Shown one piece after another: positions 47,274 through 53,149 of a stretch of 64,000 bases of DNA. The first letter of the stretch is position 1. Each line of letters begins with the position of its first letter. The position numbers and the translations under genes are program-made. The notes beneath the pieces are model-generated. The model did not search any database. It was not told where the DNA came from and saw nothing but the letters and a program-made list of their open reading frames with translations. Location: NCBI RefSeq assembly GCF_054482595.1, contig NZ_CM137008.1. One strand, written 5' to 3'.

Positions 47274-47280
47274 AATAAAT

Positions 47281-47305
47281 ACCCGGCGGCGTTTTGTCGC
47301 CGGGT
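47281..47305 (+). terminator. hairpin downstream of ppsA
   Basis: acccggcggcgttttgtcgccgggt inverted repeat just after ppsA stop. Confidence 0.6.
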
Positions 47306-47756
47306 CCATTTCTATATCCCCACCTTTTAACAACCTACTTCAGGCAAACGCGCTCGTGCAATATAAAAAGCTTCCGAGCATCATCTGAATAATTGGCTGG
47401 TGTTCTTTCTGATTTTAATTCGTTTGAGATCTTCTCCACAGAATAATTCTCGATACCATTTTTTCTCAAAGTCGAATGTGACCACTCGTCAATTTCCTTA
47501 AGCATATGCGTAATTTTTTCGTCCAGAGTTCGTTGGATTGCACGAAGTCACTGGCGAGTCCCGTTTTTATACTGTCTTCAACCACAGCATAAAAAGAGAT
47601 ATGGCTATGAAAAATTACCGCACCGTTATTCAGACATAAGCGCAGATTATGTAATTCAGAGAATTTATTCGAACTAAAGCCGATTTTCTGATTTGTCTGG
47701 CTGTACAGAAAACAGGATAAATTCCCTCCACGAGCGGAGGGAAACAGCTACAGGGA

Positions 47757-49163
47757 TTGCATATGAGTTGCTATTTGAAAGTCCTGATTTGTGCGATTGT
47801 CGCACTCGCTATATGGTTTTCCCCCGTCCCCGACGGGTTAACACCCTTAACCTGGCACATTCTGGCAATATTCATCACCACTGTGGTGGCGTTTATTCTG
47901 CAACCGTTGCCGGTAGGCGCTATCGCGTTAATAGCCATCAGTTTTATTATGCTTACCGGCATGATGAAAACCAGCGAAGCCTTAAAAGGTTTCAGCAGCA
48001 CCACGGTATGGCTTATTGTCGCCGCATTCCTGTACGCGAAAGGATTCATCAAAACGGGGTTAGGACGACGTATCGCCTATTTACTGATTCGCGGATTTGG
48101 CGGCAGCTCGTTGCGTCTGGGTTATACCTTAGCGCTAAGTGATATGATTATCGCGCCCGCAACGCCATCAAACACAGCGCGAGCAGGGGGGATTTTGTTC
48201 CCGATTGTTCGCAGTGTCTCTAACAGCTTTGGATCTGAACCGGATCAAGGGCCGCGTAAAATCGGCGCTTATCTGATGCAGACGGTGTTCCATTCCAACT
48301 GTCTCTCATCCTCGATGTTTATGACGGCCAGCGCGCCAAATGCGCTAATTGTATCTCTGGCGGCCAGCACCTTATTTGTTGATATCTCATGGGGGATGTG
48401 GACGCTAAGTGCACTGGTACCGGGCATTATCGCTTTTATCACTATGCCGTTGGTCATTTACAAACTTTACCCGCCAGAGATCAAAAAGACGCCAGAAGCC
48501 AAAGCGTTGGCACAGGAAGAACTTATCAAAATGGGGCCGGTAACCCGTGATGAGCGCGTGACGATTGGCATTTTCCTGCTTTCATTATTGGCCTGGAGTA
48601 CATCGAAATGGACTGGCCTGGATGCGACGGCTGTCGCGCTTTCCGGCGTCTGTTTAATGTTGATGACCCGGATTATCACCTGGCAGGATGTGCAGTCAGA
48701 GAAGGGGGCCTGGGACATTCTGGTCTGGCTGGGAGTCATGATCTGTATGGCAGATAAGCTCAATCAGCTTGGCCTGTTCAAATGGTTTGCCGTCACAACC
48801 TCGGCGCTGTTCACCGGCATTCCCTGGGAAATAACACTGACGGTTTTGCTGATAGTTTACTGCTATTCCCACTATTTCTTTGCCGGAAGTACGCCGCATG
48901 TAGTGGCGATGTATGCCGCTTTTGGCAGCGTCTCGGTTGCTGCAGGCGCACCGCCGATGATGGCAGCTCTGTCACTGGCGTTCGTCACTAACCTGATGAG
49001 CGGCATTTCGCATTATGGCAACGGACCCGCAGTGATCTATTACGGCGCAGGCTATGTCTCGCAACGAGAATGGTGGCGGCTGGGCTTTATCGTCATGTTG
49101 TTGAACATTGTCATCTGGTTCGGACTGGGGGCGGTGTGGTGGAAAATTCTTGGCCTGTGGTAA
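47757..49163 (+). CDS. DASS-family (divalent anion:Na+ symporter / CitT-TtdT-like) transporter
   Basis: 468-aa polytopic ORF with SNTA motifs (PATPSNTARAG); true start may be ATG 47763 (spacing to aggg); family call from motif recall only. Confidence 0.7.
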   Translation: MHMSCYLKVLICAIVALAIWFSPVPDGLTPLTWHILAIFITTVVAFILQPLPVGAIALIAISFIMLTGMMKTSEALKGFSSTTVWLIVAAFLYAKGFIKTGLGRRIAYLLIRGFGGSSLRLGYTLALSDMIIAPATPSNTARAGGILFPIVRSVSNSFGSEPDQGPRKIGAYLMQTVFHSNCLSSSMFMTASAPNALIVSLAASTLFVDISWGMWTLSALVPGIIAFITMPLVIYKLYPPEIKKTPEAKALAQEELIKMGPVTRDERVTIGIFLLSLLAWSTSKWTGLDATAVALSGVCLMLMTRIITWQDVQSEKGAWDILVWLGVMICMADKLNQLGLFKWFAVTTSALFTGIPWEITLTVLLIVYCYSHYFFAGSTPHVVAMYAAFGSVSVAAGAPPMMAALSLAFVTNLMSGISHYGNGPAVIYYGAGYVSQREWWRLGFIVMLLNIVIWFGLGAVWWKILGLW

Positions 49164-49198
49164 GTGGTCTGCGGCAAACATCAATCAAGGAATAGTGT

Positions 49199-50158
49199 AT
49201 GAACTTAAAAGATATTCAGGTGGCGATCGTCGGCAAATTAAGCGACCGCTTAATGGCTAAAGTTGAATCTACCTTCACCGCATATCGCCTGTGGGAACTG
49301 ACCGACGCAGACGCTTTTTACACGCAGATCGCGCCGGATATTCAGGCGCTGGTGACCAGTGGTAATCCGGTAATGGGAGCTTCTCGGGCGCTCATTGAAA
49401 AATTTCCGAATCTGAAGATTATTGCCAGCAACGGTGTGGGCTATGACCCTATTGATATCGTGGCAGCAAGGGAGCATGGCGTTATCGTCACCAACACCCC
49501 TGGCGTGCTTAATGATTGTGTTGCAGACATTGGCATGGCGTTGTTACTCAATGTTGCCCGACGTATTAACATTGCCGATCGTTATGTTCGTGACGGCCGT
49601 TGGCCAAACGAAGGGCGTTTCCCGATGGCGACGAAAGTGAGTGGTAAGCGTTGCGGAATTGTTGGTCTGGGGAACATTGGTAACGCTGTAGCCCGCCGTG
49701 CAGCAGCATTTGAAATGGAAATTCACTATTTCGACCCAAAACCGCATAACAAACCTGGATGGACGGCGCATGATTCGCTGGTTTCTCTGGCGCAAGCGGT
49801 GGATTTCCTCGTTCTGACGCTGCCAGGCGGGGCAAGTACACGCGGCGTTATTGACAAAACTGTGCTGCAGGCTCTGGGGGGGACCGGGCATTTGATCAGT
49901 ATTTCCCGGGGTTCAGTGGTGAACGAAACTGATCTGATTGATGCTCTGCAAAATAACATAATTGCTGGTGCGGCACTGGACGTTTATGCCAACGAACCAC
50001 ATGTGCCAGAACAATTAATGTCGCTGGATAACGTTGTCCTTACGCCACATATCGCCAGTGGTACGAGCGAAACGTTTAATGCGATGGCGGATTTGGTTTT
50101 TGATAACTTACAGGCTTTCTTTAGCGGACAGCCAGTTATTACCCCTGTTACTCAATAA
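49199..50158 (+). CDS. D-isomer-specific 2-hydroxyacid dehydrogenase family protein
   Basis: 319-aa ORF with NAD-binding GIVGLGNIG and C-terminal catalytic TPHIAS region; RBS aagga upstream. Confidence 0.75.
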   Translation: MNLKDIQVAIVGKLSDRLMAKVESTFTAYRLWELTDADAFYTQIAPDIQALVTSGNPVMGASRALIEKFPNLKIIASNGVGYDPIDIVAAREHGVIVTNTPGVLNDCVADIGMALLLNVARRINIADRYVRDGRWPNEGRFPMATKVSGKRCGIVGLGNIGNAVARRAAAFEMEIHYFDPKPHNKPGWTAHDSLVSLAQAVDFLVLTLPGGASTRGVIDKTVLQALGGTGHLISISRGSVVNETDLIDALQNNIIAGAALDVYANEPHVPEQLMSLDNVVLTPHIASGTSETFNAMADLVFDNLQAFFSGQPVITPVTQ

Positions 50159-50168
50159 GGCGGAAAAT

Positions 50169-50648
50169 ATGATTTATGGTGATATCACTTATCTTAGTGA
50201 ACAACAAAAACGAACATTTCATCCTGTCATCGCTCGTGTCATTGAGTATCTTTCACAACATGATCTGAATAGTGTTCCTGTAGGGGAGAAGGTTTTTATT
50301 CAGGATGACTCAATTTTTTATACCGTGGTTGAACCGATGACTAAACCACTACATGAATGCCGACCAGAAGTTCATCGTAAATATCTTGATGTCCATTTCT
50401 TAATTGCCGGAGAAGAGCGGGTTTGTGTGGATTTTGATGATGGAGAAAACTCGGTTGTAGAAAGCCACCTGGGCGACCGTGACGTTATTTTTTATGCTGA
50501 TGAACGTATTAATGATCGGATAATCACGTTGACACCAGGACAGTTTGTGGTGGTCTTCCCGGAAGAGGTACATCGGGCATGTTATAAAGTCGATAACGTG
50601 GAGAAAATCAAAAAAACAGTCGTGAAAATCGACATGAGTCTATTATAG
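50169..50648 (+). CDS. YhcH/YjgK/YiaL (DUF386, NanQ-like) cupin-fold protein
   Basis: ORF 50034..50648; start placed at ATG 50169 just after the dehydrogenase stop; resembles YhcH by recall (LIAGEER, PGQFVVVFPEEVH, IKKTVVKI). Confidence 0.6.
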   Translation: MIYGDITYLSEQQKRTFHPVIARVIEYLSQHDLNSVPVGEKVFIQDDSIFYTVVEPMTKPLHECRPEVHRKYLDVHFLIAGEERVCVDFDDGENSVVESHLGDRDVIFYADERINDRIITLTPGQFVVVFPEEVHRACYKVDNVEKIKKTVVKIDMSLL

Positions 50649-50660
50649 GTGGAGCTGGTT

Positions 50661-51404
50661 ATGACAAAAATTGCCCTGGTGACAGGGGGAAGTAAAGGTA
50701 TCGGCTACGCGGCAGCAAGGGCGCTCTATGACATTGGATATACTGTTATTGTTGCCGCGCGTAACGAAGAAACCTTACAGCAATGTGCACAAGAATTAGC
50801 CAAGGAACGCTTTATTCCTCTGGTTGCTGATGTAACGGATGAGTCCGCTGTCGTTGCACTATTTGCCGAGATTAAGGCTCGTTTTGGTCGACTGGATCTC
50901 TTGTTCAATAATGCGGGCAATAATAGTCCGGCAAAAAGTATTGAAGAGGTTGAGTTTACTGAGTGGATACGCGTATTTAACGCCAATATTCACTCGACAT
51001 TTTTGTGTTCGAAAGAGGCGATTAAAATTATGAAAGCGCAGCAGCCAATGGGAGGACGTATTATTAACAATGCGTCGATTTCCGCACTGACGCCGCGCCT
51101 CTATACTGCGCCATACACGGCGTCGAAACATGCTGTTACCGGGTTGACCAAGGCCATTTCCCTGGATTGTCGCAAATTTAATATCGCTTGCGGGCAAATT
51201 AATATCGGCAATGCGGAAACGACATTATCGAATCGGATGCGTAAGGGCGTTTATCAGGCAGATGGCGCTATTAAAGCGGAAGATATGATGAATGTTGCTG
51301 ATGTTGCAGCAGCCATTCAGATGATGGCCCAATTGCCAGTAACCACGAATGTGCTGGAAATAACGATTATGGCAAATAATATGCCATATGTCGGACGTGG
51401 TTAA
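50661..51404 (+). CDS. short-chain dehydrogenase/reductase (SDR)
   Basis: ORF 50649..51404; ATG 50661 preceded by aggtggag; TGGSKGIG cofactor motif, NNAG, catalytic Y-x3-K (YTASK). Confidence 0.8.
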   Translation: MTKIALVTGGSKGIGYAAARALYDIGYTVIVAARNEETLQQCAQELAKERFIPLVADVTDESAVVALFAEIKARFGRLDLLFNNAGNNSPAKSIEEVEFTEWIRVFNANIHSTFLCSKEAIKIMKAQQPMGGRIINNASISALTPRLYTAPYTASKHAVTGLTKAISLDCRKFNIACGQINIGNAETTLSNRMRKGVYQADGAIKAEDMMNVADVAAAIQMMAQLPVTTNVLEITIMANNMPYVGRG

Positions 51405-51417
51405 TCGGGATTGAATA

Positions 51418-51442
51418 AAGCACCTTGCGTATAAGGTGCTTT
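51418..51442. terminator. bidirectional hairpin between SDR gene and fadK
   Basis: aaagcaccttgcgtataaggtgcttt inverted repeat flanked by A/T runs between convergent genes. Confidence 0.7.
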
Positions 51443-51454
51443 ATTATTTATGAC

Positions 51455-53149
51455 TTATGCCTCAACGCATGATTGTTCCAGCCGTTGAACAATATCTTTC
51501 CGTAACAAAAACTTTTGTATTTTACCTGAGGCAGTACGCGGTAGTTTTTCGATTACCACGATATGTTCAGGATATTTATATTTTGCGACCCGTTTACGGC
51601 TAAAAAAAGCCACCACCTCTTCCAGCGATAATGAATGATGCGGTGCTTTCAGCACGACATAAGCGCATGAACGTTCACCTAAGCGTTCATCGGGCATTGC
51701 AACCACACAAGCATCGTGAATTTTAGGATGCTGTAATAAAATATCTTCCACTTCACGGCTGCTAATATTTTCGCCGCCGCGGACAATAATATCTTTCTTG
51801 CGCCCGGTTATTTTTATATAGCCAGCCTCATCCATGCGGCAGAGATCGCCGCTGTAATACCAGCCTTCTTCATCCATGGCACGGGCGGTTAATTCAGGTT
51901 CATCAAAATACCCCATAAACACATTGGGGCCACGCGAGGCTTCTTCACCTTCGCAACCTGGCGGTAAGGTCTTGCGTGCGTCATCGACCACTTTAATCTC
52001 TACACCTGCGGCAGCGTAACCATCGGTGTGCATAAAGCGCGACAAAGGATCATCGAGATTCACCACCGCATGCGGCGAACTTTCTGTGGAACCATAAACA
52101 CTTAATAATTTAATGCCGCGCTGCTGGCATTCACGCGCCACTTTTTTGGGGATTGTGGTACCGCCGCAAAGAAAGAAGCGCAGCGCTGAAAGGTCTGCGG
52201 GTTGTTTCTCTAGTAAATTCAAAAGATCATAGACAAACGGCGTTGCGCCGAGCATACAGGTGCAACGCTGCTGCTCAAGCAGCGCGAGACACGCATCAGG
52301 AGTGAAAATATCTAACAACACGCTGCGAGCGCCAATTAAGAATGGTGCCGTTACGCCATGCAGAAAGCCCGTTGCGTGGCCGAGTGGCGCAGGCATCATA
52401 AAGACATCCTGCCAGGTCAGATTCAGCCGCGCGCAATAAGCCCGCTCACTGGCGAGAATATTGTTATGCGTTAGCATCACGCCCTTTGGCAGACCCTCGG
52501 TTCCGGAGGTAAACAGCACCGCAGCTAATTCATCGCCGTGGGTCGTTATCGCCGTGGTCAGTGGGGTATTGTCGGCGATAATCTGACTTAATGAGAGGGA
52601 AGAGGTGGCGGGAGCCAGTTTGTCCACGCCGACAATTTGTTGTAGTTGTGGAAGCTGATTTTGCAGCGGCAGGATTAAATCTACCGGACGCGTTTGTTTA
52701 AACAACGTCGGTGCAAAGAACATTTTTGCCTGACACTTATTGAGCACCCACACCAGTTCTGCTTCCCGCCAGGAAGGCAACAGCGGCACGGAAACCGCAC
52801 CGATTTTCAGGCAGGCAAGATAGATAACGGTAAATTCACACCAGCCTGGCAGTTGAAATGCGATGCGATCGCCTGATTCAATACCCTTCGCTAACATCCA
52901 GTTTGCCAGACAGCTCGCGGCGTGATCGAGCGCGCTATAGGTGTACGATGCTCCATGATTATCGACCACGGCAATTTTGTCTGGCATCGCACGAGCGGTC
53001 TGCTGCCAGTAATCGGCCAGCGAAGCATCGCCCCATAGCCCTTGCTGACGATACGCCGCACGACGTTGTTCGTTAAACGTTAATGTCACTTTCATTTTGG
53101 ACTCTCGAAACAGAACATCAGGCCCGAGATGCGGGCCTGTGGGATGCAT
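51455..53149 (-). CDS. fadK: short-chain acyl-CoA synthetase
   Basis: 564-aa ORF, AMP-binding family; true start may be the internal MKVTLTF. Confidence 0.9.
   Translation of the reverse strand: MHPTGPHLGPDVLFRESKMKVTLTFNEQRRAAYRQQGLWGDASLADYWQQTARAMPDKIAVVDNHGASYTYSALDHAASCLANWMLAKGIESGDRIAFQLPGWCEFTVIYLACLKIGAVSVPLLPSWREAELVWVLNKCQAKMFFAPTLFKQTRPVDLILPLQNQLPQLQQIVGVDKLAPATSSLSLSQIIADNTPLTTAITTHGDELAAVLFTSGTEGLPKGVMLTHNNILASERAYCARLNLTWQDVFMMPAPLGHATGFLHGVTAPFLIGARSVLLDIFTPDACLALLEQQRCTCMLGATPFVYDLLNLLEKQPADLSALRFFLCGGTTIPKKVARECQQRGIKLLSVYGSTESSPHAVVNLDDPLSRFMHTDGYAAAGVEIKVVDDARKTLPPGCEGEEASRGPNVFMGYFDEPELTARAMDEEGWYYSGDLCRMDEAGYIKITGRKKDIIVRGGENISSREVEDILLQHPKIHDACVVAMPDERLGERSCAYVVLKAPHHSLSLEEVVAFFSRKRVAKYKYPEHIVVIEKLPRTASGKIQKFLLRKDIVQRLEQSCVEA

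What the first reader, a model, noticed from the sequence alone, without database searches (positions are those of the whole stretch)
47274..51454. Four-gene transporter plus three oxidoreductase/cupin genes inserted between ppsA and fadK
As I recall it, ppsA (b1702) and fadK (b1701) are adjacent in K-12 MG1655. Here they are separated by about 4.2 kb carrying four co-directional, tightly spaced genes: a DASS-family anion transporter, a D-2-hydroxyacid dehydrogenase, a YhcH/NanQ-like cupin protein and an SDR oxidoreductase. The last three are separated by only 10-36 bp, consistent with one operon, and a hairpin at 51418-51442 closes the unit against convergent fadK. No regulator, integrase, transposase or tRNA flanks it. 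The domain mix (anion transporter, two NAD(P)-dependent dehydrogenases, anomerase/cupin-like protein) suggests uptake and catabolism of an acidic sugar or hydroxy-dicarboxylate whose identity cannot be read from sequence. This is the most likely uncharacterised functional unit in the window, but it looks metabolic, not a defence system.
Basis: partly seen in the sequence, partly recalled or inferred. Interest (0 to 1): 0.6.

Follow-up and report, generated by a model that had tools for sequence, protein, structure and literature searches.

The report
Rare sugar-acid utilisation cassette in E. coli
A rare, intact four-gene operon (anion transporter, two dehydrogenases, metal-binding ring-opening-type protein) sits between ppsA and fadK in about 2% of E. 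coli and most likely imports and converts a keto sugar acid; it is an ordinary accessory metabolic module, but its substrate has not been determined.

Summary
Window 47306-51490 (4,185 bp) carries four co-directional intact genes between ppsA and fadK. It is present in 114 of 5,426 complete E. coli genomes, always at this site, and absent from K-12 and B strains, where 66 unrelated bp lie instead. It is a segment replacement rather than a clean insertion: the right junction lies 36 bp inside fadK and changes its C-terminus.

All four family calls hold: DASS anion transporter, D-2-hydroxyacid dehydrogenase, DUF386/YhcH-YiaL protein, SDR. New here:
- The SDR is 51% identical to the L-threonate/aldonate 3-dehydrogenase Ltn3D characterised in 2026, and every essential residue is conserved.
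- The 2-HADH is 47% identical to a 2-keto-L-gulonate reductase.
- Those two enzyme types are adjacent genes in a characterised Paracoccus sugar-acid cluster.

The four genes travel as a fixed unit without a regulator in at least five unrelated genomic contexts (Escherichia, Citrobacter, Salmonella, Celerinatantimonas, one unidentified host). They are under strong purifying selection (dN/dS 0.01-0.09).

Best reading: uptake and redox conversion of a 2-keto or 2,3-diketo aldonic acid, with the DUF386 protein opening the sugar ring. The exact substrate and the transporter's specificity remain open. One carrier lacks both the Otn and idn downstream routes. This is a new variant of a known kind, of modest interest.

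The parts
47281..47305 (+). ppsA terminator hairpin; the last sequence shared with cassette-free strains (left junction after 47305)
   Evidence: Terminator-like site. Fold -20.1 kcal/mol, z = -4.2. Identical in the empty-site strain.
47306..51490 (+). Variable segment (4,185 bp) present in 2.1% of complete E. coli genomes; replaces 66 bp of the empty site
   Evidence: GC 47.3% against 54.6% for ppsA and 50.5% for fadK.
47306..47538 (.). Orphan leader segment found only in the Escherichia version of the cassette; contains a 56-aa minus-strand ORF (47335-47505) with no recognisable family
   Evidence: No blastn or tblastn match to the Citrobacter or Salmonella copies. No NCBIfam hit.
47539..47586 (+). 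Promoter-like block conserved with Citrobacter and Salmonella (TGCACGAAGTCAC ... TTTTTATACTG, with TATACT as a likely -10 and a weak -35)
   Evidence: Alignments; blastn block. Promoter function is inferred, not shown.
47700..47743 (+). Conserved 5'-leader element: invariant GCTGTACAGAAAACAGGA followed by an 8-bp hairpin (47722-47743) immediately upstream of the ribosome-binding site
   Evidence: Fold -18.3 kcal/mol, z = -3.05. 97.9% of cells paired and 3 of 8 pairs changed on both sides, while slid controls give 38-69%. Only 6 distinct sequences.
47763..49163 (+). DASS-family anion transporter (466 aa) of the exchanger clade that includes CitT, TtdT, YbhI and plant DiT1
   Evidence: TIGR00785 449 bits. 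DiT1 437 bits and LaINDY 358 bits. 36-39% identical to YbhI, CitT and TtdT, with the PSNTAR motif conserved.
49199..50158 (+). [quoted passage not shown]
   Evidence: Best solved relatives are Kv2KGR 4LSW (267 bits, 46.8% identity), SmGhr, HPPR, and Vv2KGR 6PEX (248 bits). Arg237, Glu266 and His284 are present.
50169..50648 (+). DUF386 (YhcH/YjgK/YiaL family) metal-site protein (159 aa); member of a very narrow subfamily
   Evidence: TIGR00022 130 bits. Ligands Glu67, His69, Asp74 and His135 are invariant. Only 2 clusters at 50% identity or more among 1.84 billion representatives.
50661..51404 (+). SDR oxidoreductase (247 aa) of the Ltn3D (L-threonate/aldonate 3-dehydrogenase) family
   Evidence: 244 bits and 50.6% identity to PlLtn3D 9X6I over the full length. 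Ser139, Arg146, Tyr152, Lys156, Asn184, Glu207 and Met241 match the essential PlLtn3D residues.
51414..51445 (.). Bidirectional terminator hairpin between the SDR gene and convergent fadK
   Evidence: -17.7 kcal/mol and z = -5.1 on the + strand; -16.1 kcal/mol and z = -5.9 on the - strand.
51455..51490 (-). Divergent 3' end of fadK (last 12 codons including the stop) that travels with the cassette; right junction at 51490/51491
   Evidence: The same short C-terminus is seen in E. coli allele 2 and in E. whittamii.

Best explanation
This is an intact, selectively maintained accessory operon that forms a portable four-gene cassette without its own regulator. It most likely takes up an acidic sugar derivative and carries out two pyridine-nucleotide-dependent redox steps on it.

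Proposed mechanism (inferred):
1. The DASS-family carrier imports a keto sugar acid. The best candidates are 2-keto-D-gluconate, 2-keto-L-gulonate or 2,3-diketo-L-gulonate, which are products of incomplete glucose oxidation or of vitamin C breakdown.
2. The DUF386 metal protein opens the cyclic hemiketal, as YhcH/NanQ does for sialic acid, and hands the open-chain 2-keto acid to the 2-hydroxyacid dehydrogenase.
3. That dehydrogenase reduces C2 to the (2R)-hydroxy acid.
4. The Ltn3D-type SDR acts at C3 of the resulting (2R,3S) aldonate. It either oxidises C3 to a 3-oxo acid or, for a 2,3-diketo substrate, works in reverse as a 3-keto reductase.
5. The product then enters core metabolism.

Shown: presence/absence polymorphism, junctions, gene integrity, family membership, active-site conservation, conservation of the cassette as a unit, purifying selection.

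Inferred: co-transcription, substrate identity, direction of the SDR step, anomerase role of the DUF386 protein, and the substrate specificity and transport mode of the transporter.
For: Enzyme pair. The SDR is 50.6% identical over its full length to PlLtn3D (9X6I). It keeps every residue whose alanine mutant was inactive or badly impaired: Ser136, Arg143, Tyr149, Asn181, Glu204 and Met238, plus Lys153 (PMC12994016). PlLtn3D oxidises the 3-OH of (2R,3S) C4-C6 aldonates, with its lowest Km for D-gluconate. The 2-HADH's best solved relative is Kv2KGR 4LSW (46.8% identity), and Vv2KGR 6PEX is also among the top hits. In Paracoccus the 2KGR gene (GL300_RS07940) and the Ltn3D gene (GL300_RS07945) have adjacent locus tags and 'mostly' co-occur in sugar-acid clusters. 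That is the same pairing as here.

DUF386 protein. All four metal ligands are invariant. The only member with a known activity, YhcH, opens the ring of a 2-keto sugar acid (PMC8141875). E. coli YiaL, the closest paralogue at 33%, sits next to the 2,3-diketo-L-gulonate reductase YiaK. Other relatives lie in a KdgR-KduI-KduD-KdgT locus and in a LacI / galactonate-type MFS / DapA-like aldolase locus.

Cassette as a unit. The same four genes occur in the same order in Escherichia (ppsA-fadK site), Citrobacter, Salmonella, Celerinatantimonas and an unidentified host, each with different flanks.

Selection. dN/dS is 0.010-0.085 between the two E. coli alleles.

Supporting context. A 55%-identical SDR in Lunatibacter sits next to a GntP aldonate permease.
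Against: The transporter belongs to the DASS exchanger clade, and the characterised members I am aware of (CitT, TtdT, DiT1, LaINDY) carry di- or tricarboxylates, not monocarboxylic aldonates. A keto-aldonate would be a new substrate type for it.

The 2-HADH clade is notoriously promiscuous: glyoxylate, hydroxypyruvate and 2-keto-L-gulonate are all substrates (PMC6827314). The protein also falls below every NCBIfam equivalog cutoff.

The downstream routes proposed for Paracoccus are missing in at least one carrier. XH990, whose cassette is identical to the window's, lacks ygbI-N (OtnK/OtnC) at rpoS-mutS and lacks idnK/DOTR at ahr-yjgR.

The two enzymes carry different cofactor signatures: Asp179 (NAD-type) in the 2-HADH, and Arg34-Asn35 in the SDR.

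E. coli already has GhrB for 2-ketogluconate reduction (my own knowledge), so the benefit of a second route is unclear.

No experiment exists on any member of this cassette.
Confidence: 0.5

Rival explanations
1. The substrate is a dicarboxylate: a 2-oxo- or hydroxy-dicarboxylate, or an aldaric or keto-aldaric acid such as glucarate or galactarate derivatives. It is exchanged against succinate or malate by the DASS antiporter, as in the TtdT and CitT systems. The 2-HADH reduces a 2-oxo group, and the SDR acts on a vicinal hydroxyl.
For: The transporter's closest solved relatives are 2-oxoglutarate/malate and dicarboxylate exchangers (DiT1 437 bits, LaINDY 358 bits). It is a paralogue (36-39% identity) of CitT, TtdT and YbhI and shares the PSNTAR motif. 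The dicarboxylate tartronate binds PlLtn3D tightly (Ki 55 uM). The 2-HADH clade reduces many small 2-oxo acids.
Against: PlLtn3D had no activity on L-tartrate. A ring-opening DUF386 protein has no obvious role with short dicarboxylates. No dehydratase, lyase or decarboxylase is linked in any of the five contexts. DUF386 relatives consistently accompany monocarboxylic 2-keto sugar acid genes.
Confidence: 0.25
2. The cassette serves C4 sugar acids from ascorbate breakdown. L-threonate is oxidised at C3 by the SDR, and the 3-oxo acid decarboxylates to dihydroxyacetone. The 2-HADH handles a side product such as hydroxypyruvate or a 2-oxo-tetronate.
For: The characterised homologue is by name an L-threonate 3-dehydrogenase. 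Dihydroxyacetone was reported as the product of the classical enzyme, and trace amounts were detected for PlLtn3D. This route needs neither OtnK/OtnC nor idn, which carrier XH990 lacks.
Against: L-threonate is acyclic, so a DUF386 anomerase would be superfluous. Pl2KGR does not act on L-threonate. PlLtn3D has a much lower Km for D-gluconate than for L-threonate. A DASS carrier for a C4 monocarboxylate has no precedent that I know of.
Confidence: 0.12
3. The cassette is a decaying, functionless remnant in E. coli, or its DUF386 gene marks a sialic-acid (NanQ-type) function.
For: The cassette is pseudogenised in some cryptic Escherichia genomes, with a DUF386 frameshift and broken DASS and 2-HADH genes. 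An IS1 element interrupts the SDR gene in one E. coli strain (H28). The DUF386 protein also hits the NanQ model.
Against: All four ORFs are intact in the window and in both E. coli alleles, with dN/dS of 0.01-0.085, similar to the core genes ppsA and fadK. The NanQ equivalog score is 100 against a cutoff of 160, and identity to NanQ is 28%. No nanA, nanT, nanE or nanK gene is linked in any context.
Confidence: 0.05

Closest known systems
Paracoccus litorisediminis C4/C5/C6 sugar-acid cluster: Pl2KGR (GL300_RS07940) plus PlLtn3D (GL300_RS07945), J Biol Chem 2026 (PMC12994016)
   Same: It has the same pairing of a 2-HADH-family 2-ketoaldonate reductase with an Ltn3D-type SDR. The SDR is 50.6% identical with all essential residues conserved. 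The 2-HADH is in the same clade as Kv2KGR, to which Pl2KGR is about 45% identical.
   Different: The Paracoccus genes sit in a roughly 30-gene cluster with regulators, other transporters, and OtnK/OtnC/Ltn2D. Here there are only four genes, with a DASS carrier and a DUF386 protein that the paper does not mention, and no regulator. At least one carrier lacks OtnK/OtnC altogether. Cofactor residues also differ: Arg-Asn instead of Arg-Arg in the SDR, and NAD-type Asp179 instead of the NADPH-type Ser-Arg in the reductase.
E. coli yiaK-yiaL-yiaMNO (2,3-diketo-L-gulonate uptake and reduction)
   Same: It combines a dedicated acid-sugar transporter, a 2-keto reductase acting on a keto-aldonate, and an adjacent DUF386 protein (YiaL). 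YiaL is the closest E. coli paralogue of the cassette's DUF386 protein (33%).
   Different: YiaK belongs to a different reductase family (my own knowledge, not tested here). The transporter is the YiaMNO 2,3-diketo-L-gulonate:Na+ symporter, not a DASS carrier. The yia operon adds a kinase, decarboxylase and epimerases and has its own repressor, PlaR. It has no Ltn3D-type SDR.
NanQ/YhcH N-acetylneuraminate anomerase (PMC8141875)
   Same: Same DUF386 family and same Glu/His/Asp/His metal site. The proposed role is the same in kind: supplying the open-chain form of a cyclic 2-keto sugar acid to the next enzyme.
   Different: Only 28% identity, and below the NanQ equivalog cutoff (100 against 160 bits). 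The partner enzyme is a reductase, not the aldolase NanA. The cassette subfamily has an invariant His76 where NanQ, YiaL and YjgK have Gln.
TtdT and CitT (L-tartrate:succinate and citrate:succinate antiporters) and plant DiT1
   Same: Same DASS exchanger clade, and also encoded next to the enzymes that process the imported acid.
   Different: 36-39% identity to the E. coli paralogues. The linked enzymes are dehydrogenases rather than a dehydratase or lyase. The substrate is unknown and may not be a dicarboxylate.

Membership tests
DASS (divalent anion:Na+ symporter) family, TIGR00785 | Profile score above the curated cutoff over the full length | tested here: met
   448.8 bits against a cutoff of 198.6, covering residues 23-462 of 468.
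DASS (divalent anion:Na+ symporter) family, TIGR00785 | Conserved Ser-Asn-Thr substrate/ion-binding hairpin motif | tested here: met
   The N-terminal PSNTAR motif is invariant in the cassette proteins, YbhI and CitT (TtdT has PSNSAR). The second motif region reads SHYGNGP and its role was not evaluated. That the motif binds substrate is from my own knowledge of VcINDY and LaINDY.
DASS exchanger clade (CitT/TtdT/DiT1): di- or tricarboxylate antiport | Counter-exchange of a di- or tricarboxylate with a C4-dicarboxylate | not testable with these tools
   Only sequence similarity is available: DiT1 437 bits and 36-39% identity to CitT, TtdT and YbhI.
[quoted passage not shown] | Both 2-Hacid_dh domains and the catalytic Arg-Glu-His triad | tested here: met
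   PF00389 and PF02826 are on record for the 98%-identical orthologue. Arg237, Glu266 and His284 are present in the sequence. Full-length alignments to 4LSW and 5J23.
GhrA / GhrB / glyoxylate reductase equivalogs (NCBIfam) | Score at or above the equivalog cutoff | tested here: not met
   Glyoxylate reductase 223 against 455; GhrB 175 against 492; GhrA 62 against 403. It is not an orthologue of the E. coli enzymes.
2-keto-aldonate (2-keto-L-gulonate / 2-keto-D-gluconate) reductase | NAD(P)H-dependent reduction of 2-ketoaldonates to the (2R)-aldonates | not testable with these tools
   Closest solved relative is Kv2KGR (46.8% identity), and Vv2KGR is also a top hit. Activity has not been measured, and the clade is promiscuous.
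DUF386 / YhcH-YjgK-YiaL family (TIGR00022, PF04074) | Profile score above the cutoff, plus the Glu-His-Asp-His metal site | tested here: met
   130 bits against 45.5. Glu67, His69, Asp74 and His135 align with YhcH Glu63, His65, Asp70 and His130, and are invariant in 6 cassette proteins and 4 outgroups.
NanQ N-acetylneuraminate anomerase (NF040884 equivalog) | Equivalog score at or above 160, and linkage to nan genes | tested here: not met
   100.4 bits; 28% identity to E. coli NanQ; no nan genes in any of the five contexts.
Ltn3D-type SDR (L-threonate/aldonate 3-dehydrogenase, PMC12994016) | Catalytic Ser-Tyr-Lys plus the carboxylate and C2-OH binding residues Arg143, Asn181, Glu204 and Met238 | tested here: met
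   Ser139, Tyr152, Lys156, Arg146, Asn184, Glu207 and Met241 are identical, and Ser141 matches Ser138. Only Met186 differs (Leu189), and the M186A mutant stayed active. 50.6% identity over 243 aligned residues.
Ltn3D-type SDR (L-threonate/aldonate 3-dehydrogenase, PMC12994016) | NADP-binding Arg33-Arg34 pair | tested here: inconclusive
   Ours has Arg34-Asn35. The paper reports putative Ltn3Ds with Arg-X and considers Arg33 the more important residue.
Ltn3D-type SDR (L-threonate/aldonate 3-dehydrogenase, PMC12994016) | Functional coupling to the 3-oxo-tetronate kinase and decarboxylase (OtnK/OtnC) | tested here: not met
   No otn genes are in the cassette in any context. Carrier XH990 lacks ygbI-N at the rpoS-mutS locus, although 85% of E. 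coli genomes have ygbK-L.
Classical genomic island / mobile element | Integrase, flanking tRNA, IS elements or direct repeats at the junctions | tested here: not met
   None in E. coli within 6 kb, and the junctions lie at a terminator and inside fadK. Elsewhere the cassette does sit near mobility marks: about 1 kb downstream of a tRNA-Lys/Val cluster and next to a transposase fragment in Salmonella, and near IS transposases in one Citrobacter.

The most novel reading that the evidence does not exclude
The cassette encodes a so-far undescribed minimal route for an ascorbate- or ketogluconate-derived sugar acid, for example 2,3-diketo-L-gulonate or 2-keto-L-gulonate. In this route a DASS exchanger-clade carrier transports a sugar acid, which would be a new substrate class for that clade. 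The narrow His76-bearing DUF386 subfamily would then be the second DUF386 member with a defined activity: a keto-aldonate ring-opening enzyme or 2-keto/3-keto isomerase. That would also explain the long-unassigned YiaL.
Probability: 0.2. Interest if true: 0.55.

Novelty: new variant of a known kind. Interest (0 to 1): 0.35.

Why it matters
If the reading is right, about 2% of E. coli carry a compact, self-contained module that widens the range of oxidised sugar acids they can use in the gut, in urine or on plant material. So do E. whittamii, some Citrobacter and some Salmonella.

The cassette is a convenient four-gene system for three questions:
- giving a biochemical function to a DUF386 protein other than NanQ, and by extension to YiaL;
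- testing whether DASS exchanger-type carriers can move sugar acids;
- testing in enterobacteria the newly described Ltn3D/2KGR chemistry.

It also shows an accessory operon moving between Escherichia lineages by homologous recombination in flanking core genes, with no mobile-element marks at the junctions. None of this is surprising in kind. It is a typical uncharacterised accessory catabolic operon.

Tried and rejected
- Riboswitch or other known RNA in the 450-nt leader: the Rfam E-value scan gave only a chance-level hit.
- Leader as a remnant of the acetyltransferase or DUF6904 gene that flanks the Citrobacter copies: tblastn found nothing. NCBIfam found nothing for the leader's minus-strand ORFs.
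- Downstream route via OtnK/OtnC (ygbK/L): rejected for carrier XH990, which has the alternative rpoS-mutS allele without ygbI-N.
- Downstream route via L-idonate (idnD/O/K): idnDO is in only 38% of E. coli and absent from XH990.
- CRP- or FNR-type site in the conserved promoter block: read by eye only, and I saw no convincing match, so I make no claim.
- The APEC_O2 transcriptome paper that lists a strongly induced 'citT anion permease' (PMC5589974) cannot be tied to this locus.
- Context look-ups for two of the nearest DUF386 relatives returned only very short contigs.
- No paper on the DiT1 structures (9MCR) is held in the library, so binding-site residues could not be compared.
- One broad literature query returned only irrelevant hits.
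- Structure prediction and fold search were not run. Sequence-level matches to solved, characterised homologues were already unambiguous.

Full report
OBSERVATION

The window region is the E. coli ppsR-ppsA / fadK-ydiTSRQ neighbourhood. Between the ppsA stop (47273) and the convergent fadK stop (51455) lie four intact co-directional ORFs. RefSeq annotates them in an identical genome (strain XH990) as anion permease, 2-hydroxyacid dehydrogenase, YhcH/YjgK/YiaL family protein and SDR family oxidoreductase. With RefSeq starts the genes are 47763-49163, 49199-50158, 50169-50648 and 50661-51404, separated by 35, 10 and 12 bp.

Every copy is full length, single and chromosomal. The flanking ppsA and fadK sequences are in about 5,400 genomes, but only the same 114 bridge the junctions. 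In strain B, ppsA and fadK are adjacent. K-12 MG1655 matches only from window 51491 onward.

Shared sequence ends at 47305, directly after the ppsA terminator hairpin, and resumes at 51491. So 4,185 bp replace 66 bp of the empty site. The right junction is inside fadK. Carriers encode ..DIVQRLEQSCVEA*, while cassette-free strains encode ..DIMRRLTQDACEEIE*.

WHAT THE GENES ARE

NCBIfam places the transporter in the DASS family (449 bits, cutoff 199) and the small protein in TIGR00022 YhcH/YjgK/YiaL (130 bits, cutoff 45.5). The small protein falls below the NanQ equivalog cutoff (100 against 160). The 2-HADH is below all equivalog cutoffs, and the SDR is generic. Comparison with solved structures is more informative.

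- Transporter. Its best matches are the plant 2-oxoglutarate/malate translocator DiT1 (437 bits) and the exchanger LaINDY (358 bits). It is 36-39% identical to E. coli YbhI, CitT and TtdT, with the PSNTAR motif conserved.
- 2-HADH. Its best match is the Ketogulonicigenium 2-keto-L-gulonate reductase 4LSW (267 bits, 46.8% identity). Next come the Sinorhizobium glyoxylate/hydroxypyruvate reductases, hydroxyphenylpyruvate reductase, and grapevine Vv2KGR 6PEX. It has the Arg237, Glu266, His284 triad and an NAD-type Asp179.
- SDR. It matches 4DYV, 4DRY and 9X6I end to end. 9X6I is PlLtn3D, an 'atypical L-threonate 3-dehydrogenase' described in J Biol Chem in 2026 (PMC12994016). That enzyme oxidises the 3-hydroxyl of (2R,3S) C4-C6 aldonic acids, with its lowest Km for D-gluconate. 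Our SDR is 50.6% identical. It conserves every residue whose mutation abolished or crippled activity: Ser136, Arg143, Tyr149, Asn181, Glu204, Met238, plus Lys153. Only Met186 differs (Leu), and that position tolerated mutation to alanine.

In Paracoccus, the gene next to Ltn3D (GL300_RS07940) is a 2-HADH-family reductase about 45% identical to 4LSW. [quoted passage not shown] The dehydrogenase pair of our cassette therefore has a characterised counterpart.

THE DUF386 PROTEIN

Its four metal ligands (Glu67, His69, Asp74, His135) align with those of H. influenzae YhcH and Salmonella YjgK. They are invariant in all cassette copies and outgroups.

The subfamily is very narrow. Among 1.84 billion representative proteins, only its own cluster (72%) and one other (56%) exceed 50% identity, and everything else is at or below 42%. 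Among 100,044 species-representative genomes, only E. whittamii, Escherichia sp. MOD1-EC7003 and Citrobacter youngae carry a close copy.

It is closer to YiaL (33%) than to NanQ (28%). It has an invariant His76 where the other compared members have Gln.

The only DUF386 member with a known activity, YhcH/NanQ, opens the pyranose ring of N-acetylneuraminate for the aldolase (PMC8141875). Contexts of other relatives are consistent with 2-keto sugar acids:
- YiaL lies next to the 2,3-diketo-L-gulonate reductase YiaK and its transporter.
- A 39% relative lies in an IclR-DUF386-KduI-KduD-KdgT locus.
- A 35% relative lies in a LacI / galactonate-type MFS / DapA-like aldolase locus.

THE CASSETTE AS A UNIT

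The same four genes in the same order, with the same lengths (466, 318-319, 158-159 and 247-248 aa), occur in several settings:
- at ppsA-fadK in E. coli, E. whittamii (intact) and cryptic Escherichia clades (partly pseudogenised);
- between an acetyltransferase gene and a methyltransferase gene in Citrobacter, once near IS transposases;
- about 1 kb downstream of a tRNA-Lys/Val cluster, next to a transposase fragment, in Salmonella enterica;
- in the marine gammaproteobacterium Celerinatantimonas;
- in an unidentified host.

None has a linked regulator, kinase, aldolase or dehydratase. Protein identities to the window copy range from 94% (DASS, Citrobacter) down to 47% (DUF386, Celerinatantimonas). 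The SDR is the most conserved at long range (73-83%). Klebsiella carries the SDR alone. A 55% SDR homologue in Lunatibacter sits beside a GntP aldonate permease.

SELECTION AND HISTORY

There are two E. coli allele classes: 33 genomes at 99% or more to the window, and 81 at about 96%. Between them, dN/dS is 0.010 (DASS), 0.082 (2-HADH), 0.085 (DUF386) and 0.084 (SDR). That is comparable to ppsA (0.026) and fadK (0.105), so the genes are maintained by selection.

The cassette's genealogy is decoupled from its flanks. The two E. coli alleles differ more in the cassette (3.6%) than in ppsA or fadK (1.5-2.2%). The window cassette is 97.5% identical to a cryptic-clade copy whose ppsA and fadK are only 94.7% and 90.8% identical. 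Together with the junctions (a terminator on the left, the divergent fadK 3' end on the right) and the lack of mobility genes, this points to spread among Escherichia lineages by homologous recombination in the flanking core genes. Which state is ancestral cannot be decided here.

Occasional decay is seen: an IS1 element in the SDR gene of strain CS5L, and frameshifts in cryptic clades.

REGULATORY ANATOMY (INFERRED)

The 457-nt leader has no Rfam match. Only two parts are conserved with Citrobacter and Salmonella:
- a promoter-like block at 47539-47586, with a TATACT -10 and a weak -35;
- 47700-47743, an invariant GCTGTACAGAAAACAGGA followed by a hairpin just upstream of the ribosome-binding site.

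The hairpin keeps pairing through compensatory changes at 3 of 8 pairs, with 97.9% of cells paired against 38-69% in the slid controls. The sample is only six distinct sequences. Segment 47306-47538 is specific to the Escherichia version and unexplained.

MECHANISM

The best-supported reading is uptake of a keto sugar acid, followed by ring opening by the DUF386 protein, reduction of the 2-keto group by the 2-HADH, and action of the Ltn3D-type SDR at C3.

I tested two downstream proposals, and both failed in carrier XH990. It lacks ygbI-N (OtnK/OtnC), although 85% of E. coli have these genes. It also lacks the idn genes, which are present in only 38% of E. coli.

Three possibilities remain:
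- The product is an aldonate handled by core genes such as GntK.
- The SDR works in the reductive direction on a 2,3-diketo or 3-keto substrate.
- The 3-oxo acid decarboxylates spontaneously, as discussed for Ltn3D.

The main counter-argument is the transporter. Its clade is known for di- and tricarboxylate exchange, so a dicarboxylic substrate remains a serious rival. The promiscuity of the 2-HADH clade also prevents a firm substrate call.

VERDICT

The feature is a real, selectively maintained, rare accessory catabolic operon built from known enzyme families in a combination that has not been characterised. The 2026 Ltn3D/2KGR work reduces its novelty and narrows the likely substrate to aldonic and keto-aldonic acids. 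It is a new variant of a known kind, of modest interest.

Noticed in passing
window 51455-51490 (- strand): The last 12 codons of fadK are a divergent allele that travels with the cassette (..DIVQRLEQSCVEA* against ..DIMRRLTQDACEEIE* in K-12 and B). The rest of fadK is 98.9% identical at protein level. E. coli allele 2 and E. whittamii share the short form.
   Followed up: yes
window 47306-47538: A 233-bp segment at the left end of the insert has no counterpart in the Citrobacter or Salmonella cassette copies. It holds a 56-aa minus-strand ORF (47335-47505) with no family match. Its origin is unknown.
   Followed up: partly
window 47700-47743: An invariant GCTGTACAGAAAACAGGA is followed by a hairpin directly upstream of the transporter's ribosome-binding site. 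Three of its eight pairs show compensatory changes across Escherichia, Citrobacter and Salmonella. It may be a translational or mRNA-stability control element, or a protein-binding site.
   Followed up: partly
L066 (XH990 1113065-1116583) and L069 (XH990 4246504-4249435): The carrier genome identical to the window has the alternative rpoS-mutS allele (MarR regulator plus hydroxyarylic acid decarboxylase BCD) instead of ygbI-N. It also lacks idnK/DOTR between ahr and yjgR.
   Followed up: yes
window 47306-51490 against L007, L008, L017, L024: Cassette and flank genealogies disagree. The cassette is more similar between E. coli and a cryptic clade (97.5%) than their ppsA (94.7%) and fadK (90.8%). 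The two E. coli alleles differ more in the cassette than in the flanks. This suggests introgression by homologous recombination.
   Followed up: partly
L007 8001-8481; L008 5593-7990; hit H28 (NZ_CP158311.1): There are signs of decay in some lineages: a DUF386 frameshift and broken DASS and 2-HADH genes in cryptic Escherichia, a truncated fadK there, and an IS1 insertion in the SDR gene of E. coli strain CS5L.
   Followed up: partly
window 50169-50648 (residue 76): The cassette's DUF386 subfamily has an invariant His two residues after the metal-binding Asp74. YhcH, YiaL, YjgK and other compared relatives have Gln there. This may be a specificity or catalytic determinant.
   Followed up: no
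window 49199-50158 (Asp179) and 50661-51404 (Arg34-Asn35): The two dehydrogenases carry different cofactor signatures, NAD-type in the 2-HADH and NADP-leaning in the SDR. If the steps run in opposite redox directions, the pair would act as a net 2-keto to 3-keto isomerisation with NADH-to-NADPH transfer.
   Followed up: no
window 51455-53149: The fadK ORF extends to an upstream ATG at 53149 (564 aa), whereas RefSeq starts it at 53095 (546 aa).
   Followed up: no
L014 and L015 8001-8744: Klebsiella oxytoca-group genomes carry a 75%-identical Ltn3D-type SDR as a lone gene between a YdjM-family gene next to cysS and an S4-domain gene next to folD. None of the other three cassette genes is nearby.
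   Followed up: no
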